Source: Azolla caroliniana (lineage: Eukaryota; Plantae; Polypodiophyta). From it: 64,000 nt of DNA. The stretch covers positions 5,332,001-5,396,000 of the forward strand of contig JBHGNT010000004.1 in the NCBI GenBank assembly GCA_043228905.1, written 5' to 3'. A model generated the notes under the pieces. The model was not told the DNA's origin, made no database searches, and saw only the letters and a list, made by a program, of their open reading frames with translations. The position numbers and the translations under genes were made by a program. The first letter of the stretch is position 1. Every line of letters begins with the position of its first letter. Positions 1-12,755 of this stretch are shown here, in pieces.

Positions 1-2953
1 GTCGATTCGGCTGTGTCTTTGATGAGTCTTTGAGTTCGACGATTGGACTTGTTGCCGATTCGTTGTCGGCAGGGAAGTTGGTAGCTTGTTGGAGTTCGAC
101 TGTTTATTGAGTCTCCAATTCGGCCTGGTGGGTCGGTCCTTCTATGACAGTGCTGTCATCTTCGAAGGATACCTTTTTACCAACTGTTTTCTGTTGGTTC
201 CGCTGAGAGAAGATAGAATCTTCATTGAAGACTACGTCGCTGCTTTGGATCAATTTCCGGTTCTCAAGGTTCCATAGCTGGTAGCTGAAGCTCCCATCGG
301 TTCCATAACTAAGAAATATGCACTTGGTTGCATGGGGTGCCAACTTCGTCCTTTTGTCCTTGGGGATGAACGTGTAGGCTTCACATCCGAATATACGGAG
401 CCTATTGTAGGTCGGCTATTTGCCTGACCATAGTGCCTGTGGCACTTCGAGCCTGATTACTCTTGACGGCGTAAGATTTATCAGGTACACTGCCGTCTGC
501 AATGCCTCGGCCCAGAATTCTAGCTTCAGTTCGGCCTGCTGGAGCATTGCCATCCTGGATCGTCCTGTTGATCTGTTCTGCCACTCCATTTTGCAGGGGT
601 GTGTAGGGAATGGTCTTTTGGTGTCGAATCCCTTTTCTGGACAGGTACTGTTTGAAGGCTCTAGAGGTGTATTCACCTCTGTTGTCGGATCAGAGTGTCT
701 TCACCCTGTATCCCGACTGGTTCTCCACTTCAGATATCCATCGAATGAAGATCTCGAGCGCTTCATCTTTGGACTTGATGGAGTATGCCCAAACTTTCCG
801 CGTATAGTCATCTACGAATGTGATGAAGTAATGGGAGCCTCCTAGTGATCGCTCTGGCATGGGCCCACATATGTCTGTGTGCACGAGCTCTAGGGGCTAT
901 CGTATCATCTCGTAGTGGAGAGAGTGCAAACTTTGGGTCTGTTTCCCATATCGACAATGCTCGCAGAAGTCCGTCTTTGCCTGGAGTTTCGGGATGTAAC
1001 CGACTGACATCAACCGATCAAGTCTGGCTTGAGACATGTAGCCGGTTCGGGTCGGTTTTCTCGGCTACGTTCACGGCCCCTTCAGGGTTGATCGCCATCA
1101 ATGGGTATAGATTATTATACTTGTGCCCATTACCGATTTTGAGGTTTCCTCGGCTGATCACCCATGTCGACTCGTGTAGAGTCGTTCGATACCCGTCTTC
1201 GGCTAACATGCCGATGGAGACCAGACTCCTCTTTAGATCGAGTACGTGCTGAACTCGGTGCAGGGTTATTGTGTTGCCATTTGGCAATCTGATGGGAACC
1301 TCTCCGGTTCCGGCTATCTTGCACTCTTGCTCGTTTCCCAATTAGATAGTGCCGTTGGCGTCGGCTGAATAGTTCGAGAACAATTCTATGTTGGGGGTCA
1401 CGTGAAATGTGGTGCTAGAGTCTAGTAGCCACGTGTGTGCAACTTGTGCATTGTAGAGGACTTCTCCAATCATTGAGTCCTCTAAGGAGAGGATTTCTCA
1501 GGATTGGGTGTCAGCAACATTGATCTGGTTGCCGACTGGAGAATGGTCCGAGTTGGAACGTCCCCGATTTCGCTCGTATCTTCGACCGCTCTCTTTTCTT
1601 TTTAATGACCAACAGTCAGAAACATTGTGGCCAACTTTCATGCAATGTGTGCAATACTCGCTTGATCGGCCCATTTTCGACTTTGACCGCTATCGGTCAC
1701 CCCTTGTTTTTGATCGATTGTAGTGTTGACCGGTTCTGTTGGCTTGTTCTTTCGTTCGACTCTGTGGGTCGAACGACTTGGTTGAGTGATGGGCTTCTAC
1801 TGACTCATCAATGGTTAGTCCCATTGATTTTCACCTGATGTCCTCTGTGAGGACTTGGCTGATTGTTTTGTCCAAGTTTAGGATCGGTTGGCTATTGGCA
1901 TTTGTTGTGCAGAATACCTCCCAACTCGCCGACAAGCTCGATAGGAGGGCAAGGGCTTTCACTTCTTCTTCGAAGTTGATCCCTTGTGACGAGAGCTCAG
2001 ACAACACCCGACTAAAGGGGTTGATGTGGGAGATTTCCGGATCGGTCTCTCTCATCTTCATGTTGAACAGTTGTTTGATCAAAATCAGTTTCGAAGATGA
2101 GGACTTCTTTTCATAAACAACCTGTAGCTTCTCCCACAATGAGAACGTTGTCGTCTCTTTCGCCATGCTGAAATAGATGTTTTCGGCCAGATGCATTCGG
2201 ATGGTGGAGCGTGCGATTTCATCCGTTGATCTTCACTCCTCGGCTGTCATTAAAGCAGGTTTTTCGCTGTGTCGGATGGCTTCGACTTGTCTTCGAATGA
2301 TCAACACATCCTGCATCATCTCCTTCCACAAGGCAAAGTTTTTGCTGTTGAATTTTCTGATTTCAACTCCTGTTCCAGATGTTGAAGCCATATTCTGATT
2401 GTGAACTTGAGATTTCTGACCTGGTTTTTTCTTTCAGCTTCTTCTGTTTGTCTGTTGCCATCGAACAACAAATATTCGCTCTGATACCAGTTGTTGGTAA
2501 CGAGTGCGGTTTGTTGAAACGTGTGTGGATCTGTTGTCGATTCTGAACAACAAACAACATAGACAGAAAAAAGGAATGGGCGTGGAATTACACAATGCAA
2601 GCTCTAATGGAAAGCTTTATTGCTTCTTTCTCACTCTCTCATTGTGATACAATGCACAGACACTTCGTCTCTCTGTCACTCGTCTTCTATACAATGTTAG
2701 GAATTCGCTTATATACTAAGCCCTAACTTATTGACGAGTTCACACTCGGACGGATACAACTTGGAAGGAGTTGGCCTTTTATGCCAACATTATCTTGGTT
2801 GGAGACACACAATCAGACAGTGGATTGGTGTAACCACTCCTAGATCACTTTTCCAGTAAGGCAAATCCATGCTAGGTCACGACACTCTCTTGATTCCGTT
2901 GCGACCGAGTCCGGTTTGCTTGCTGTCGGGGGATGTCATCGTTCTTGTCAACA
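1..2953 (-). mobile_element. Ty1/copia LTR retrotransposon, 5' part (5' LTR, gag, protease, integrase), degenerate; continues beyond window start
   Basis: LTR 2492-2953 with TGTTG..CAACA ends; PBS at 2478-2489. Minus-strand ORF fragments: gag (EIRKFNSKNFALWKE, IKQLFNMKM), protease region, integrase (HTDICGPM..YFITFVDD, FWAEALQTAVYLIN, KCIFLSYG). Many stops and frameshifts. Confidence 0.93.
2478..2489 (-). promoter_or_regulatory. Primer-binding site, tRNA-Met(i) type (TGGTATCAGAGC)
   Basis: GCTCTGATACCA on + strand, 2 nt from the LTR end. Confidence 0.92.
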
Positions 2954-3004
2954 GTTTACCTGTCTGATATAGCGACTTTTTTGACATCTTCTAAAAGCAG
3001 AATG

Positions 3005-3622
3005 CCGATCGGTTACCGGCTCATCGCCCCTACGATTGCCCAATCAAAATCCAAGCTAGTGAGGATCCCCCATTCGGTGCTATCTATGGGTTATCTGAAC
3101 TCGAACTTGAGGCTCTCCACACATATCTGGCTGAGAATCTCGCGAAGGGCTTCATTCAACCCTCCAAATGACCGGTCGGGGCACCAATCTTATTTGTCAA
3201 AAAGAAGCACGGCTCCTTATGCTTATGTGTGGATTATCGGGGTCTCAACAAAGTTACGGTGCGTAATCATTACCCCCATCCCTTAATTGCAACGCTCCTC
3301 AATTGAATCCGAACTGGGCATATCTTATCCAAAATCGACCTTCGGGGCGCCTACAATTTGGTGTGCATCAAGCCTAGGGACGAGTGAAAAACGGCTTTTC
3401 GGGTGCGCTATGGACATTTCGAGTACAAAGTGATGCCATTCGGCCTTACCAATGCTTTGGCTGTCTTCTAGCACGCGATGAACGATATTTTTCGAGAGTA
3501 TCTCAATCATTTCGTGGTCATCTACCTTGACAACATCCTAATTTTTTCTTCCAACTAGGAGGAGCACACACACCACATCCGGTTGGTTCTCACCAAACTA
3601 CGAGAATATGGGCTCTTTGCTT
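3005..3622 (+). pseudogene. Ty3/gypsy reverse transcriptase fragment (chromovirus/Tcn1-like)
   Basis: Manual translation: [75 protein letters not shown]; several in-frame stops; absent from the ORF track. Confidence 0.9.
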
Positions 3623-3669
3623 TAATCCGTAAAGGTACTTCTTCAGTTGGCATACAACCAACGTATTCA

Positions 3670-5027
3670 TTCTGGACTGAAATCTAAGTGGTTGCACCAT
3701 GTATACCTATTCCTCGAGTTCTCCTTGCAGGAACATGTTCTTTACATCCATCTGGTACAAATGCCAACCACTCTTCGTTGTGGTGACTGAAGCAAGACAC
3801 AGACTATCGTCATCTTTGCGACTGACGCGAATGTCTCATCGTAGTCGATGCCGTATTGTTGTGCATAGCCCTTGGCCACTAATCGGGCCTTATACCGGTT
3901 GACAAAGCTGTCGGCGTTGTACTTGATATTGTACACCCACTTGCATTCGATCGGCTTCACGCCCTTGGGGGCATCAACCAAATCCCAAGTCTCATTCTTT
4001 GTTAGCAATTACATCTCTTCCTCCATTGCGGCACGTTAATTCATGTCCTTTGCCGCTTCTGCATAGCTCTCCAGCTCACGCACTTCCGCCACTTTTGTCA
4101 TGTACGCATAATGATGCGCCATGTACTCATTATATCCATATCTCTTGTGGGATTCTTCTAGCGGGTCGCTCAACGTAACTTCTCGTTTGCTGATTTTAGG
4201 GCCCTCTTGGCTGACTCAGACTTTGTTTTTGAAGGTCTGTCTTCGTTCTTTCCGGAGTCGGATTCACTCCGATCCAACTCTCCCTTGTCGGTGCCGTACT
4301 CTGGCATCTTCTTCTTCCCCTTCTCTTTACACATGAACCGTCTCCTCGATTCCTTGCGCACTGAGTGCATAGCCGAGTCCTCACCACTCGTCGGCTCTTC
4401 ATTCGACTGGTTGATCCGACTCAGCCCATCATTCGGCCCACTTAGTCGGAATGAGGTCAGACTCTCTTCTAGAGCTCCGATTTCTTCTTTGTATGGAGGC
4501 ATCTCAGCCTCACTGATCTCATCTTCAGAGATCGGAATGGAGTTGTCGGTTGGAAACGAAGGCAAGTACCATGAAGTTGATTCGTTGAAGACAACATTGC
4601 GGCTTACATGGGTCTTTTTGGTTCGGGGTTTATAACATTTATAACCCTTCTACTCGTCCAAGTAGCCAACCAATATGCACTTCTCAGCTTTGGCATCTAG
4701 CTTCGTCCGCTTCTCCTTCGGCACATGCACGTAGGCGATGCTGTCGAACACTGTCAAGTGTCCAAGATTCAGTTTCTTTTCGAAGTACAACTCATGTGGT
4801 GACACTCCTCCATTTGCAGATGTCCGATTCTGTAGGTAGACGACTGTCTGAACCGCTTCAACCCAATAAAACTTCGACATGTGCTTTTCTTCAAGATTGC
4901 TCGCGTCCGGTTCTTCTATTCGGCCACACCGTTCTACTCTGGTTTGTATCTGCAAGAGAATTCTTGCAGAATTCCTTCCTTTTGCAGATAACTCGTGAAC
5001 TGGCCAGAAAAGTACTCCTTTCGGCAA
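3670..5027 (-). pseudogene. Ty1/copia pol fragment (integrase C-terminus, linker, RT N-terminus)
   Basis: KLDAKAEKCILVGY; [34 protein letters not shown]. Confidence 0.9.
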
Positions 5028-5099
5028 TTGGACCTCCTGGGGGCTTCATTGTCAAAACTTGTATGATAGCACGTGAGTTGAAAAGAGATAATTGAGGAA

Positions 5100-6212
5100 C
5101 TAGGAGGGTAGGCGACTAGATTATCTTACTCAAGAAGAGACAAGAAAGGAAATTTCTAGTTCGAAGCAAAGCATCTGTCGCGCTCATAGAAAAATATGGT
5201 CGCTAGCTTGCAAATTGCAATGCTTTCGATAAAGGTAATGACTCTCAAGGAAGCATCCGTTGAGAGCGTGGAACAGAAGGATGTTCGAAGATTTTGTAAT
5301 AACATTATTGAGGCTCATCAAGCTGGAAAATTTGGTGGAAAGAATGCATTATGGGTTTCTTGACAAATGTTGCACAAAACCTTACTCGAAAGCAACATGG
5401 ACAATGATTTAAACACACATCTAATGCAATTTTTGTCATGATTAAAATGTGGAGTGGACCAAGATTACACGATTTTGTTTCTAAAAATTCAGATGGACCA
5501 TCATTAAGCACTACAAAGAGAGTTGAGAGGAAGGCAACTAAATTCCTTCTAGGGGTCCATGAATATATATTTCAGGATGTGGCTAAGATTTATGAAAATG
5601 AAAAAAGAGTGCATGGCATTATGAAACCATTGTTAGATCCTTTAAAGACGATGTGGTTGGACATTATGCTAGGGTGTTAATCGTGAATTCTCTTCACCCT
5701 AAACTTCCACGATAAGTATTGGTTGTACATTGTACATGTAACTGCTTTGATGTAGATTTTATAAAATGCCAATGGAATGAAGTGGAAACTCTATGGGGAA
5801 AACACCTCTCCACAAGTATTGGGTCAATTTTTGGACATGCATCATATGCAAATAGTAGGAGAAGAAAGATTATGCTTCAAGTTTACTTAACCCAAGCATA
5901 TGCTTAAGATATAAATTGCCTTGGGATGGTTGGATCTTCACAGGTCAAATGCATAATGATATGATAAGTTGTCTTCATGATCAAGATTTCATCCATAATG
6001 GAAAGAAACTTGTGAATGCACTAGATAATCCTTGAAGACAATTAGTAATTAGAGATGTATGGATCATATTGAATCATGTGTCATTGGTATATAATAACAT
6101 TTGTATCGATGCACATGAAGGGAATGTGATATTACGAGAGAAGATAGACAAAATTGGGTTGGATCCCAAAGAATTGCAAGTAAGAATGTTACTTATTGTT
6201 TAAAGATGTTTT
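5100..6212 (+). pseudogene. Decayed cut-and-paste transposase-like gene with DxxH motif (P-element/THAP9-like)
   Basis: Frame-joined translation gives FCNNIIEAHQAGKFGGKNALW..MIKMWSGPRLHDF..GHYARVLIVNSLHPKLPR*VLVVHCTCNCFD..GHASYANSRRRKIML..LHDQDFIHNGKKLVNALDNP..LNHVSLVY..EDRQNWVGSQRIAS. The DxxHxxKxxxN and DRQN..Q segments resemble P-superfamily motifs. Family assignment is inference. Confidence 0.6.
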
Positions 6213-6924
6213 GAATTATATACTTGCATACATGTACATATATAATATATATTAAAGTAACTTAATGTTTATGCCTTTTATTTTAACAGGAAAAGGAGAA
6301 AAGAGTAGAAACCAAATATAAACCTACGGTATTCTAAATATATTTTCTGATTTCTTTAAGGTATTGTTTACTTCCATATATATTAGGTTTTCTTACCTTT
6401 GTTGTTTACTTCCATATATATTAGGTATAATACAAGTCCAACATTGAAGATGGAAAGGATATGAAATTGATAGCCTAAAATCAATTTCTTAGGGTTTTCT
6501 ATTTATATAGTTTGTATTTATGAGGGTAACCTTTATTTTAATAAGTTTTTTAAGTAGACATTGAAATAACAAAATGATTTATTTTATTTCATTTTGATTT
6601 GGGTAAGAATATGTGCATAGATGACATCTTACATTTCAAATGCAAATATAAAATATATTGTCATTTGTTTGATCAATGTGACTAAGAAAAAATAATGTTG
6701 TGGCTTCGTATCAGTCTATCCATCAAACCAAACATAATGTTAATTTGTTAATAATTTCATTATTGATATGCATTTGGATTATTCCATGTGTGCCCTTTGA
6801 GATATATATGTCAAGTTCAAGATTATTTTTTTGTAAATTACATTGTTCTTTATCACTTTATATTCTTCATATATCTCAATAAACTATAAAAATAAAATTA
6901 TATGTGGCTTATATATGTTATACC

Positions 6925-7586
6925 CATAGATTGACACATGCGTGATATTTGTGATATTCTTCATGCTCAATATTCTCAATATTTGAGAATACGAAATGGC
7001 CCCAAGAATATTAAAAAACCATTCGTTTTGCAAAATAAATATAAAATATTTATTTATTTATTTAAATAAATTTATTTTACCAAAAAAAGAACAATTATTC
7101 GTTAATATATTATAGTGTCAAGAGAGTTTATTAAACATATTTTAATTAATCAATCAATTAGTTAATTTTTAAAAAACAAATATTTTTATATTTATTATAT
7201 AACTATGATTAGTATGAACTTTGAGTATATGATTAGTTTGAAGTACTATTTTTAATGTCAAAATAAAAATATCCATAAATTTTGAGGGAATAAAAAGTGA
7301 GAAATTAATGAGCCTTTATTTTATTTTATTTATTTATTAAAATAAAACAAATACCTATAACTTATAAGTTATACATTTATTATAAAAATTTAGTAGTGTC
7401 AAATCCCCAAGTCCCTCTTTTATTATCCCTATTTATTGTCAAGTTCCTTTTTTTTTATCCTAGAAAATTAAAAACGACAAAGTTTTTTTTTTCTTAGAGT
7501 TAAACGAATACTTGACCACCCATTTGTATTCGTATTTGTTTGCATTTGAATGGGAAACCTGACGAATGCGAATATGTAAATCTATG
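6925..7586. mobile_element. Non-autonomous DNA transposon (MITE), TIR CATAGATT(G/T)ACA, 8-bp TSD GTTATACC
   Basis: GTTATACC at 6917-6924 and 7587-7594; starts CATAGATTGACA, ends TGTAAATCTATG; AT-rich interior with GAATACGAA/ATTCGTATT-type subterminal motifs. Confidence 0.88.
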
Positions 7587-8901
7587 GTTATACCTATAGT
7601 GTTTTTGGGTAATGTTTCATAATTGTGTGTGCATTACTTTGTACTTTACACATTGTGTTTTCAATTTATATGGTACTTGATAAAGCATTTCTAGGAATTT
7701 GCATATGATGTTTAATGTTCATTCATAATTTAGCGAGTCATGAATTGTAAAGAGGGTCATTGATCCCTTCTAGGATTGGAAACTATGTGTGCATGTATAT
7801 TTTATATGTAAGGGTATTTAAAATGGGTGGTTATAAAATTTTTTTTGGTAATAAGGGGTATTTTTATTAATCTTTTTTCTACAAATGGGTCACTACAATA
7901 GTAAAAAACATACGTATAAGGAGTTTATAAATGATATCATGAACACACGTGATATAACCTTCTTATATATAGAGGAGTACCTGCGTCAGACCTTACGCAT
8001 TTGATTTTTCTTCCGGTTTCCCTTTTGGCAAGGCTCTTTACCTTTAGGAAACAGGAGAAGACTTCGCTCTTCTTCGCGATCAATGATGCCCAACTGTGCC
8101 GAGTGTAGTTATTGATGAAGGTTACAAAGTAACGGCTTTCTCCAATGCTCACATTCTATGTTGGTCCCCATACATTCGAATGAATTAAGTCAAGCTGATT
8201 CTGGCTCCGACTTCGCTCGTTGGGGAATGGAAGTCAGTGCTACTTCCCTAATTGGCAGGCATTACAGACTTGGCCGTTCCGGCCACTAAATTTCGGTAAT
8301 CCGAAAACAATGTTCCTGGTCTGCATTTCCCAAAGCCGTGGGAAGTTCACAAGACCGAACCGTTTGTGCCATATGTCGATATCCGACTCGACCTTTTGCC
8401 CTTTCACGAACATGGCGGTTCCGACTTCGTTGGTGTCGAGGATGAACGTCCTCCTGTCTTGGTGCCTTGCGCGATGATTTGGCCTTCTTCCTCGATGAAG
8501 CACCTGTGATGTGTAAATCAAACTTGCAACCCCTGATCGACGATCTGCCCGACTGACACCGGGTTCTTTGTGATTGTGAGAACGTGAAGCAAGTTCATAA
8601 GTTTCCCTTTTTGTCCAACATGGCTGAGGGGAACTTCTTCGACATGTTTGATCGGGTGCGGAGTGTCGTCTCTGGTTTCGACCACTCCCGGTTGCTCTGG
8701 CTTCTCTAAGTATGAGAACCATTCTTCATGACTCGTCATGTGATTTGATGCTCCGAAGTCAACGTACCACACCTCATCCGATTGTGAGGTGGTCTTCTTC
8801 ATTGAGTTTGCCTTGTGCTTCATCACAAAGGCTGGCCCTTTTCCGGTCTTTCCGGTTCCAAATCCTTCTAATCCTTCGGCATAGTGCGAGCTTTGACGAT
8901 T

Positions 8902-8933
8902 CCCTAAACCCTAAACCCTAAACCCTAAACCCT
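8902..8933. repeat. Interstitial plant telomere repeat (CCCTAAA)4 + CCCT
   Basis: CCCTAAACCCTAAACCCTAAACCCTAAACCCT read directly. Confidence 0.95.
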
Positions 8934-9086
8934 CTTTGTTGGACATTGCTCAGTTCATATATGAGTAGCAGCTTTCTGGTTGTGGTGCTTGTGGCGAATA
9001 CCTTCTTCAGATTTCCTCAAGCCTCCTTTGGCATTTTGGAGTCCCGGATGTAGCTTAGTAGTTGATCATCGACACTAGATGCTAAG

Positions 9087-9808
9087 TGATGAAGTGAGAG
9101 AGAAAAAAGATAGAGAAGAGAAGAGGAAGAAAAAAGAATACTTCAATATACTATTAAGAAAAGAATACAATCCTCTTAGACACCAAGAGGAACAACCCCA
9201 AATAACTACTTCAATATACTATTACTAAAATAGTCTTTTTGCCTTCTCTCTTTCTTCTACTAATCGTCTTCCCACTTCTTCTAATCTTCTTCTTCTTCCT
9301 CACTTCTTCTTCTTCACTTCTTCTTGTAGATCTTCTATCCTTTCTTGTAGATATTCTATTCTTCCTCCATCCCCCATATTGCTAAGAATACCGCATATTT
9401 ATAGGTTTTTAGTTGCGTTATTCTTGCCTTTTTCTTTTCTTTTCTTTTACATATCCTCGAGTTTGTGTGGTGTGTTTTTCATATAATTATTTCTGTGTTT
9501 TCATCCAATTTTTTCATACAAAAAATCTCTCTTTGTTAGCTTTCTTACGAATCTTTTCTTTTGAAATTTGGATAGAAGATGAAGAACTTATGAGCTTTTT
9601 TCTCTACCTTGCTTTTTTTGCTTAATTTCTTGCGTTTTTCTTCTTTTTCTTCGTTTTCTACTTTTGAAAAACGCCTCTAACTTTATTTCTCTTCAATTTC
9701 ATCTATCGTTTAACTCTTGGACCTTTCATATTGTGTTTTATTCTTCTATACCTTCGCATCCAATGTATTTGTCATGGTCTTTTCCTATGAGCAAAAATTG
9801 ACTTCACA
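9087..9808. mobile_element. Solo LTR inserted in copia gag, TSD CTAAG
   Basis: TGATGAAGT...ACTTCACA ends; CTAAG at 9082-9086 and 9809-9813; removing it restores the gag reading RVLYCLASSVDDQL. Confidence 0.85.
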
Positions 9809-10530
9809 CTAAGCAGTAGAGAACTCTACTTGCCGCTTGTTCCCAGGCCAGAAAATCCTTGTGTGTTGATTCTGGTGCTGCATCATTTGCTCCTTCGACA
9901 TAATTCTAGTACCCATGTCCGAGCATGTACTGGTGCATCTTGTACGACTAGGATGCATAGTTTTTTTTGTCGAGCTCCTCCTCGGAAGCGAGCTTCCCAT
10001 ACCTCTATCCATTTCTCTTCTTGTTTGTTCTTACTGGGTGCTAGGTCTTGGTTTGTGTTGAAAGATCTTGTCAGCAACAAAGGATGTTCAACCCTCATGC
10101 TCTAATACCACGTAAAGATAATTATGTAGAAGCTAAATAGATCTCAACCGGCTCAGTCGGATAGCAATAGAAACCACAAAGAGTGGAATACGCAGAGAAG
10201 GTGAGTGAGAGAGAGAGACAGAGAGAGAAAGACAATAAAAATCTATTTCAAAAGCTCTATAAAACTTTGTACATACAAATTTGCATCATAGCACTTTTTA
10301 CACAAATCCTTAAAGGATTGACAAAAGTATTGAAAAGTACTTCAATGCTTATATTGAGCGACAAATAGTAACTCCCAAAAATATGCCTATGTACTAGGCG
10401 AGGACCGTAGGCCTCTAACGGCCTACCGGTTACACGTTGTTCCAGATACCGATCCGACTCTCTGTTCCAGATACCGTTCCGGCTCTGGCTTATTCAGCCA
10501 ATCCGGATCATGTTGAGCTTGTATCTCAAC

Positions 10531-11950
10531 GATAGGAAACGGACCCAAAGTCCGCACTCTCTCAAATCCGAGACGATACAACAATCTTTAGAGTTGGTTC
10601 ACACCGACATCTGTGGCCCGATGCTTGAGACATCTCTAGGCAACTCCTGGTACTTCATCACATTCGTAGATATGATTGTACACGAAAGGTCTGTGCCTAT
10701 TTGATTAGGTTGAAGGACAAGGTGGTCGAGGTCTTCACTTGGTGGCAACCCGAAGTGGAGAACCCCTCAGGACATAGAGTGAAGACAATCCGATCCGATA
10801 ACGGAGGCGAATACACCTCCCGAACATTCAAACAATACTTGTCTGAAAAAGGAATCCAACATCAGAGAACCGTTCCATACTCTCTCATGTAGAACGACAT
10901 GGCGAAACTCCTGAACTAGACAATCCAGGAGAGAGTGAAGACAATGCTCTAACATTCCGGACTCAAGCTAGAATTCTAGGCCGAGGCACTGCAGACGATC
11001 ATCTACTTGATAAATCTATCGTCGTCGAGAGCAGTGTGGCACAAAGCGCCATAGGCACTATGGTCCGACAAAACGCCAACCTACGATAGACTCCATACAT
11101 TCAGATGCGAAGTGTACACATTCATCCCTAGGGATAAAAGGACTAAGATGGCACCCCATGCACTTAACTGTATATTTCTCGACTACGGCACAGATGGGGA
11201 CCTTGGCTATCGGCTAGATGGGATCCGGAGAATCGGAAATTGATTAGATGTAGTGACGTAGTCTTCAATGAAGACTCAATACCCTCCAACCCGACCTAGT
11301 GAAAGAAATTATGCAAAAAGGTCTCATTTGTCCTTGACAGATTGGTCCTAGAAGGGCCAACCAATCGAGCCGAATCAGAGCTTTGACAACTAGTTGAAAT
11401 AATCGAGCAACGGCCCCCCAACTGAATCCGAATCGGCAAGAGGTCTAGTAGTCGAAATTGAATTTGATTAGAACAAAAGATTGACCAAAGCCGAATAAGC
11501 AAAGATAGTTGAATGGGTCGAAGAAATTTGCTAAAAACAAAGGGAGGTGATCGGCAAGAGCCGAATCGTCCGATCAAGTCAAAGCCAAAAAGAGTAGCAT
11601 CGAAATAGAAAGAGTCGAATCGACCAAATTGTCCAAACAGGCTAGGGTGCTGAAAGGCTGAGCTGAACCAGCCAAGGCACCAAGCCCTCTATCAATCAAT
11701 CTCGAAGAATGGGAGGATGATTCGACATCGCCAAAATCCTATTGCGGGGGTGAATCATCCAAAAGGACTTCTGAAGACAACTCAACCAATGCCGATTGGA
11801 TACCAGAACCAATTGAAGAATTCGACCTGACAAAATTGGCACCCAGGAGATCCAAACGAGTCCGAAGGCCAACAAAGTTTTACCAACCGGGCCTCAACTA
11901 CATCCACTACACGGATGCAGGACCTAGCTCGTATGAGGAAGCTCGTATGA
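10531..11950 (+). pseudogene. Ty1/copia integrase and linker fragment (same family as 1-2953)
   Basis: LELVHTDICGPM, VKTIRSDNGGEYTS, AEALQTIIYLIN; colinear with the reverse complement of 1-950. Confidence 0.9.
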
Positions 11951-11967
11951 AGGACTCACGACCGATT

Positions 11968-12755
11968 GGACCATGGTAATTTAACGTTTAAATACGTATA
12001 GTACCTTCTAATTTGTATAGTACGTACTATATCTCAATGTTGTTTAGTCAAATATCATGTACATTTGAAAAAATGGGTATAATACGTATTTATAAAAAAA
12101 TGTAAGTAAAACCCCAACAAAAAGCGAAAGAAAAATGTTTTTTAGTGAAAAAGAAGCAGAAAGAAGGAAGAAAGAAGAACATAAAGCGATGACAACGACG
12201 AAGAAGGAGAAAAAGAGAGAAAAGAAGACAGAAACCTGTCCTGACTCTGAGTGTGATTATCACAGAAGATAGAAGAAGAAGATGATGATGAATATGAGAG
12301 AAAAGAAGAGAGAAACCTATAATGAGTGTGATAATTGTAGACGATTCCTCAATCTATGCAGGCATAAATTGTAAATAATTACAATTTGAAGTAGAACATC
12401 GTGATACTCACTTACTCTGATTTATAGAACAAGTGAATGTCGACATCCATATGATAAAGTATTTTAGGATGTGAAATTTTCAAATGTCTTATATGCATTT
12501 TAGGATGTAGAACTATAATGTACATCACAAAATTGTGTAAACATAGATGCTTTTTACAATATTACGAATATTTTTTAGAAAGGTAAATAATTTTCAAATT
12601 CTAGAAGTATTTAATGTACTATACGTAAAATACGTATTTTATAAATATTTAACATATTAAAAAATGTATTTAATGTATTTTTAAATTGGGAGGTACTATA
12701 CGCGTATTAATACGTTATATACGTATGGTATCCTTACCGTACCTAACAACCTTGG
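11968..12755. mobile_element. Putative MITE / non-autonomous DNA transposon remnant
   Basis: AT-rich block with subterminal inverted repeat (AATACGTATAGTACCTTCTAATTT ~11991-12014 vs AAATTGGGAGGTACTATACGCGTATT ~12683-12708) and repeated TACGTA; right end reads CAAGGTTGTT on the minus strand; no TSD found. Confidence 0.5.

What the first reader, a model, noticed from the sequence alone, without database searches (positions are those of the whole stretch)
5100..6212. Fossil P-element-like (DxxH) transposase in a land-plant TE cluster
Seen: this is the only non-retroelement coding remnant in the window. Joining frames gives ..ARVLIVNSLHPKLPR*VLVVHCTCNCFD..GHASYANSRRR..LHDQDFIHNGKKLVN..EDRQNWVGSQRIAS. 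Established: P, hAT, Mutator and Kolobok transposases share a C/DxxH motif after the second catalytic Asp, and P/THAP9 show DxxHxxKxxRN followed later by a K-M/Q-x-V..AQ segment. Inference: this is a divergent P-related transposase whose second Asp has decayed (ASYAN) and whose first-Asp region is deleted near 5625. P-type elements are rarely described in land plants.
Basis: partly seen in the sequence, partly recalled or inferred. Interest (0 to 1): 0.75.

Follow-up and report, generated by a model that had tools for sequence, protein, structure and literature searches.

The report
THAP-less P-type transposon in land plant
This is a dead, internally deleted copy of a multi-copy cut-and-paste jumping gene with inverted ends and 8-base target duplications, whose enzyme is predicted to fold like the fruit-fly P-element transposase, which likely extends that group to ferns and liverworts.

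Summary
Confirmed. Window 5036-7985 is one deleted copy of a multi-copy DNA transposon with 17-bp TIRs (CCCGGGGACT…). Of 16 insertions, 11 have exact 8-bp TSDs, and no other length from 4 to 12 bp fits any exactly. The longest copy seen is 10.2 kb and encodes about 1,370 aa. A model of a near-intact copy matches Drosophila P transposase (Foldseek E 2.6e-9; VIA Z 25.6, next fold 11.5). D389, D509, H559 and E746 are invariant in 74 of 74 relatives. It has also lost the catalytic Glu, and it sits in a Copia integrase gene. It differs from canonical P: no THAP domain, CC…GG ends, a longer D–D interval and a BAH/Tudor-like C-terminal barrel (Z 7.7, inconclusive). Named relatives come from Adiantum and Riccia. 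No intact copy was among 41 of 136 candidates scored. Two copies on C3 have swapped TSDs, implying a 15-kb inversion. The scan found this family before in this genome (e1-10288302) and P-like elements in other plant genomes. New variant of a known kind.

The parts
5028..5035 (+). left 8-bp target site duplication TTGGACCT
   Evidence: 6 of 8 match to the right copy; both mismatches fit decay of one CpG
5036..5079 (+). 5' terminus: decayed 17-bp TIR (5036-5052) and subterminal TTGTAT...CACGTG motif, followed by an internal deletion of about 6.3 kb
   Evidence: matches bases 1-44 of the 10.2-kb C2 copy at 91%; window 5081 continues at base 6357 of that copy
5081..5622 (+). transposase remnant 1: long helix and HTH region (P0004 residues 206-379), two frame changes
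5619..5623 (+). junction of a deletion of about 166 bp (TTAT microhomology) that removes residues 380-433, including catalytic D389
5620..6211 (+). transposase remnant 2: RNase H strands and start of the helical insertion domain (residues 434-632)
5845..5847 (+). codon of the second catalytic Asp (D509), here TAT (Tyr)
   Evidence: D509 invariant in 74 of 74
5985..5996 (+). DxxH motif (D556-F-I-H559), intact
   Evidence: D in 73 and H in 74 of 74
6203..6211 (+). junction of a deletion of about 1.44 kb (TGTT microhomology) that removes catalytic E746 and the C-terminal barrel; shared with copy L003
6211..6924 (+). end of the inferred last intron, inferred short last exon (6290-6308) and 3' non-coding part
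   Evidence: 82-89% to other copies; exon inferred from GT..AG in the C2 copy
6925..7586 (.). nested high-copy MITE with CATAGATTGACA...CTATG ends and 8-bp TSD GTTATACC (6917-6924, 7587-7594)
   Evidence: 993 candidates, 40 scored at 90-100%; 8-bp TSD in 4 of 4 loci read
7595..7985 (+). 3' terminus with decayed TIR (7969-7985)
   Evidence: 89-92% to other copies
7986..7993 (+). right 8-bp target site duplication TCAGACCT
4170..8910 (-). Copia retrotransposon remnant whose integrase frame (…IKCVRS | RSNCRKEYFSGQF…) is split by the element
   Evidence: Copia label from recalled motifs

Best explanation
The window holds a dead, three-times internally deleted copy of a multi-copy TIR DNA transposon with 8-bp target duplications, whose full-length transposase is predicted to fold like Drosophila P transposase and likely moved it by P-type cut-and-paste. 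Shown: TIRs, TSDs, dispersed copies, an invariant D/D/E triad with DxxH, and one spliced contig in one public run. Predicted: long helix, HTH, split RNase H with a helical insertion domain, C-terminal SH3-like barrel. Inferred mechanism: the HTH reads the 17-bp TIRs; C2H2-like and Cys/His fingers replace THAP in binding subterminal TTGTAT/CACGTG motifs that are spaced differently at the two ends; D389/D509/E746 excise the element and join it to target sites staggered by 8 bp. Interrupted repair of donor sites would give the microhomology-bounded deletion derivatives, which were then moved in trans. This copy landed in a Copia integrase gene, was hit by a MITE and decayed. The plant members likely descend from an old land-plant lineage of a broad THAP-less P branch.
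For: Fold: 6p5a and 6pe2 rank first (Foldseek E 2.6e-9, TM 0.69 on target; VIA Z 25.6, 413 aligned, rmsd 5.1, against Transib 11.5, RAG1 10.0, Hermes 8.6, ISCth4 8.2); model pLDDT 87. Invariant D389, D509, G510, H559, E746. D at E-3 in 60 of 74, the offset of P's GTP-contact D528 from E531 (PMC7776569, section 8). TSD: 11 exact and 2 one-mismatch of 16 at 8 bp; no exact match at any other length from 4 to 12. Exact TIR matches: 14 left and 49 right ends, reversed-pattern controls 0. The majority sequence of 20 copies is stop-free for 1126 codons. Shared-breakpoint deletion subfamilies. A contig in run X2 skips the predicted 80-nt GT..AG intron, while a contig of run X3 spans it without the skip. 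Plant clade of 22 rows with Adiantum and Riccia (89/100), G000 next to Adiantum (100/99).
Against: No Pfam P model hits the G000 proteins, and profiles A1, A2 and A3 do not find 6p5a by sequence, so the link rests on one predicted model plus language-model neighbours. No THAP. The ends are CC..GG, not the CA..TG recalled for P. The D1-D2 interval is 108-144 residues against 73 (PMC7776569, PMC3698922). No intact copy among 41 of 136 candidates scored. X2 is only guessed to be RNA.
Confidence: 0.9

Rival explanations
1. It works like P but deserves its own superfamily or named branch (THAP-less, CC..GG ends), possibly the same as the divergent P elements catalogued from rust fungi.
For: No sequence-level convergence with 6p5a in three profile searches; 14-15% structural identity; the best language-model neighbours are unannotated Basidiomycota clusters; Repbase fungal P elements are listed for Pucciniales and Allomyces (PMC5751038, table passage).
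Against: PF12017 hits over the curated cut-off in P0100, P0117 and P0202, which the family profile retrieves; Z 25.6 is over twice the next fold. This rival differs from the best explanation mainly in naming.
Confidence: 0.2
2. It is a hAT, Mutator, Kolobok or Zisupton element that shares C/DxxH or an 8-bp TSD.
For: 8-bp TSDs also occur in hAT and Zisupton, and C/DxxH is shared (recalled); Hermes and ISCth4 appear in the fold lists.
Against: Hermes Z 8.6 and ISCth4 Z 8.2 against 25.6; no hAT, MULE or KDZ Pfam hit in 64 relatives; TSDs are neither TTAA nor 9-11 bp. No Kolobok or Zisupton structure appeared in the lists, so these two were not tested by fold.
Confidence: 0.04
3. The plant copies came by recent horizontal transfer or contamination, not old land-plant descent.
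For: Unnamed relatives at 33-43% identity sit near the plant clade, and its sister group is unresolved.
Against: Copies lie on at least 20 large contigs and inside host retrotransposons, which excludes contamination. Fern and liverwort members are 46-57% identical to P0004 and group together. An old transfer into early land plants is not excluded.
Confidence: 0.1
4. It is a domesticated host gene with pseudogene copies.
For: Several database proteins carry uninterrupted frames of 1014-1153 aa; one spliced contig.
Against: Copies have TIRs and distinct TSDs; all full-length genome copies examined are broken. The intact database proteins may come from collapsed or transcript assemblies.
Confidence: 0.01

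Closest known systems
Drosophila melanogaster P element transposase (PDB 6p5a, 6pe2; PMC7776569, passages and section 8 read)
   Same: Predicted HTH, split RNase H with helical insertion domain, DDE triad, Asp at E-3, 8-bp TSD, asymmetric subterminal motifs, internally deleted non-autonomous copies
   Different: No THAP; about 1,370 aa against 751; 17-bp CC..GG TIRs against 31 bp; D1-D2 interval about 120 against 73; extra N-terminal fingers and C-terminal beta-barrel; 14-15% identity; GTP use untested
P superfamily members Galileo, 1360 and the D. buzzatii P/BuT5 pair (PMC3698922, introduction and passages read)
   Same: DDE with D(2)H; deleted derivatives; exchanged TSDs between opposite copies mark inversions, as seen on C3
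   Different: Those carry THAP where examined; Galileo and 1360 make 7-bp TSDs
Fungal P elements in Repbase (Pucciniales, Allomyces; PMC5751038, passages read)
   Same: Divergent non-animal P; nearest language-model clusters are Basidiomycota
   Different: Not compared directly; no Repbase sequences were available
Sponge and insect THAP9-like clade (P0202 group: Amphimedon, Ceutorhynchus, Sitophilus, Frankliniella)
   Same: hhalign probability 100, E 6e-110 over 844 columns, same motifs in register
   Different: Separate long branch; many carry PHD and some PF02902 domains

Membership tests
P superfamily | RNase H-like DDE core with P-type insertion domain and HTH | tested here: met
   predicted model matches 6p5a 128-565 over model 53-571, Z 25.6
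P superfamily | D/D/E triad with D(2)H motif after the second Asp | tested here: met
   D389, D509, E746 and H559 invariant in 74 of 74, D556 in 73; equivalence to D230/D303/E531 inferred from order and strand positions, as no residue-level superposition was printed
P superfamily | TIRs and 7-8-bp TSD | tested here: met
   17-bp TIR with one mismatch; 8-bp TSD exact in 11 of 16
P superfamily | sequence convergence with known P transposases (Repbase criterion, PMC4455052 passage) | tested here: inconclusive
   no direct Pfam or PDB hit; weak PF12017 hits in 6 of 64 relatives, 3 over cut-off; iterated PSI-BLAST not run
Canonical P/THAP9 family | N-terminal THAP (C2CH) domain | tested here: not met
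   no THAP hit in full-length relatives; signature absent in 12 of 12 plant-clade proteins, 7 of them with long N-termini
Canonical P/THAP9 family | CA...TG termini (recalled) | tested here: not met
   ends are CCCGGGG...CCCCGGG
Canonical P/THAP9 family | GTP-contact residues D528, K385, K400, V401, S409, F443, D444, N447 | tested here: inconclusive
   D at E-3 in 60 of 74. By a recalled motif match, K400 would be N or D (67 of 74) and S409 would be S in 31 of 74; this mapping comes from no call
Canonical P/THAP9 family | GTP requirement and 17-nt staggered donor cleavage | not testable with these tools
   needs biochemistry
hAT | Hermes-type fold and hAT Pfam domains | tested here: not met
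   Z 8.6 against 25.6 for P; no hAT Pfam hit
Mutator/IS256 | 9-11-bp TSD (recalled) and MULE domain | tested here: not met
   0 of 16 at 9-11 bp; ISCth4 Z 8.2
Kolobok | TTAA TSD (recalled) | tested here: not met
   TSDs are 8 bp and vary; no strong base preference in 39 flanks
BAH chromatin readers (C-terminal domain) | BAH fold | tested here: inconclusive
   top five VIA rows are BAH-containing (Z 7.0-7.7, 83-87 aligned, rmsd 2.8-3.3), chromo/Tudor barrels follow at 6-6.8, none reaches 8; Foldseek best E 8e-3
BAH chromatin readers (C-terminal domain) | methyl-lysine binding cage | not tested
   no residue-level comparison made

The most novel reading that the evidence does not exclude
An unrecognised THAP-less branch of the P superfamily has been inherited in land plants since before liverworts and ferns split. 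It swapped THAP for zinc fingers, may have shed or rewired P's unique GTP requirement, and reads chromatin through a built-in BAH-like domain. It is still able to move and to invert chromosome segments in this genome.
Probability: 0.25. Interest if true: 0.78.

Novelty: new variant of a known kind. Interest (0 to 1): 0.55.

Why it matters
The P-element papers I could read list animals, Trichomonas and a few fungi as hosts, not land plants. A recently amplified plant family that Pfam P models miss means such elements probably sit unclassified in bryophyte and fern annotations. It offers a natural test of two P-specific puzzles: whether GTP use is ancestral to the superfamily, and how ends are paired without THAP. 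It also gives a candidate plant-native P-type transposase, and a candidate transposon-made inversion in a plant.

Tried and rejected
Pfam on six window pieces and four long frames of other copies: nothing significant. PDB sequence searches with one protein and three profiles did not find P transposase, so a planned residue-level mapping to 6p5a failed. The Atlas search of the N-terminal 340 aa of P0010 gave only 0.75. Insertion bias towards retrotransposons was not supported: 15 of 39 flanks against 26 of 100 random stretches hit the window's retroelements (p=0.15; GC p=0.19; the library was only this window). A second gene in the 5' half, as reported for relatives in other genomes, was not found: in the C2 copy it is ACAT-rich low-complexity DNA with one GC-rich island. 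Rfam on 4500-12500: none. Expression: no run was on record as an RNA holder; run X4 laid 0 reads, which is no test. Cluster look-ups of 20 proteins gave no organism names. In one search one pair (L050/L035) was mis-picked by my script; it was corrected, where L045 was dropped as a duplicate of L044. Literature: 10 searches found no paper describing P elements in land plants. Yuan and Wessler 2011 and four other reviews I asked for by id were not held, Repbase and Dfam could not be searched, and no supplements were read. Absence from print is therefore not established.

Full report
Observation. Pfam says nothing about them. A DNA search of the own genome (523 Mb; window at G000:C4:5332001-5396000) returned 65 matching pieces from 40 of 94 candidates scored, with the long pieces at 87-95% identity, so the remnant is a repeat.

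Boundaries. Comparing 20 fetched 10-kb loci showed a sharp shared 3' end and a shared 5' end. The ends are 17-bp inverted repeats with one mismatch, CCCGGGGACT(T/C)CACTAT, followed by a TTGTAT…CACGTG motif spaced differently at the two ends. Exact matches number 14 left and 49 right ends; the reversed-pattern controls gave 0. Of 16 distinct insertions with both ends in hand (L045 dropped as a duplicate of L044), 11 have an exact 8-bp TSD, 2 have one mismatch, the window has 6 of 8 (both at one CpG), and 2 carry each other's TSD. No other length from 4 to 12 bp gives an exact match. The window element is 5036-7985 and splits a Copia integrase frame.

Full-length anatomy. The C2 copy is 10,181 bp. 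Its first 4.9 kb are ACAT-rich low-complexity DNA with a GC-rich island that may be a promoter or non-coding exon (inferred). The gene has a 733-nt first exon, an 80-nt intron, a long second exon and an inferred short last exon, about 1,370 codons in all, with several stops in this copy. One contig in run X2 skips exactly the 80-nt intron, while a contig of X3 spans it; X2 is only guessed to be RNA. No intact copy was found among 41 of 136 candidates scored, but the majority sequence of 20 copies is open for 1126 codons. Copies lie 1.2-4.1% from it and the window copy 5.3%. Several subfamilies share deletion breakpoints, and some lack nearly all coding DNA. The window copy has three deletions of about 6.3 kb, 166 bp and 1.44 kb; the two coding deletions are bounded by 4-bp microhomologies. 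It lacks D389 and E746 and has Tyr for D509, so it cannot encode an active enzyme.

What the protein is. P0002 (866 aa, from copy L033) found 105 relatives. The named ones come from Adiantum nelumboides and Riccia sorocarpa; three EukProt rows show no organism, and most are unnamed. The profile found 6,851 cluster representatives. In 74 diverse relatives only D389, D509, G510, H559 and E746 are invariant. The AlphaFold model (pLDDT 87) matches Drosophila P transposase first by Foldseek (E 2.6e-9) and by VIA (Z 25.6, 413 residues; Transib 11.5, RAG1 10.0, Hermes 8.6, ISCth4 8.2). Language-model neighbours at 0.95-0.97 are unannotated Basidiomycota clusters and clusters with PF21787/21788/21789/12017. 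Against this, no sequence search reached 6p5a, and only 6 of 64 relatives hit PF12017.

Differences from canonical P. No THAP domain is found. Full-length plant-clade proteins carry C2H2-like fingers (7 of 12) and a C…FRHxxC…CxxC motif (10 of 12). The D1-D2 interval is 108-144 residues against 73 in Drosophila (PMC7776569 section 8; PMC3698922 passage). The Asp three residues before the catalytic Glu, a GTP contact in P, is kept in 60 of 74; other GTP contacts could be mapped only from a recalled motif and look only partly kept. The C-terminal domain, folded alone (pLDDT 86), is an SH3-like barrel whose best matches are BAH domains at Z 7.0-7.7, under the level that excludes a common arrangement. 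I found no insertion bias to support chromatin targeting.

Phylogeny. In an ML tree of 48 of 154 non-redundant core sequences, 22 rows form a clade (89/100) holding Adiantum, Riccia and the G000 family, which is next to Adiantum (100/99). The sister group is unresolved and the root is for drawing only. The host is likely a non-seed plant, probably a fern (inferred). Absence from seed plants was not tested.

Mechanism. Shown: mobility with 8-bp staggered insertion and spread of deleted derivatives. Predicted: P-type catalytic architecture. Inferred: HTH binding to TIRs, finger binding to subterminal motifs, and gap-repair origin of the deletions. Untested: GTP use, 17-nt staggered cleavage, histone reading. 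Two opposite copies 15 kb apart on C3 have exchanged TSDs, the signature that PMC3698922 (introduction read) uses for inversions made by ectopic recombination; a mis-assembly is not excluded.

Literature and prior findings. Read: PMC7776569 (passages, section 8), PMC3698922 (passages, introduction), PMC5751038, PMC4455052, PMC5718144 and PMC7466625 (passages). None of the passages seen lists P in land plants, but key surveys and Repbase were out of reach, and no supplements were read. The scan had already reported what appears to be this family from another piece of the same genome (e1-10288302; its 3,717 bases equal the length of my L093 copy) and P-like elements in other plant genomes. I formed my reading before looking.

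Verdict. A real P-superfamily-like transposon, not a member of the canonical P/THAP9 family (THAP and terminal tests not met). The window copy itself is dead. New variant of a known kind; interest 0.55.

Noticed in passing
G000:C3:1184526-1190606 (L096, minus) and 1205708-1211756 (L097, plus): Two oppositely oriented non-coding copies carry each other's 8-bp TSD (CGTGTGTT and TTGTTTCC), implying inversion of the 15 kb between them by ectopic recombination, or a mis-assembly.
   Followed up: partly
window 6925-7586: High-copy 660-bp MITE with CATAG...CTATG ends and 8-bp TSDs of pattern nTTRTAnn (4 of 4 read); 993 candidates. hAT or canonical P-type; its transposase is unknown.
   Followed up: partly
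L105 (G000:C725:4495-4710): The only PF21787 match in the genome is a decayed canonical-type P transposase on a small contig; possibly a contaminant, possibly a second P lineage.
   Followed up: partly
L044/L064 and L045/L065 (G000:C5 12.97-13.01 Mb): Two 10.8-kb copies with identical flanks and TSD 24 kb apart: a segmental duplicate or an assembly duplicate.
   Followed up: no
C2 copy, element bases 1-4900 (L085): The 5' half is expanded ACAT/AC low-complexity DNA of very variable length among copies, with a GC-rich island at about 3330-3535 ending in a possible splice donor.
   Followed up: partly
P0010 residues 1-75 and element bases 4900-5130 of the C2 copy: A conserved N-terminal domain of about 70 aa in plant-clade transposases looks ubiquitin-like by eye (recalled pattern); the Atlas gave no match.
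   Followed up: partly
P0086, P0133, P0130, P0197, P0202 group: Relatives carry different add-on domains (Tudor PF21743, SAP, C1, PHD, PF02902), suggesting repeated capture of chromatin-related modules by this branch.
   Followed up: no
window 8903-8933: Short run of plant telomere-type CCCTAAA repeats inside the retroelement cluster.
   Followed up: no
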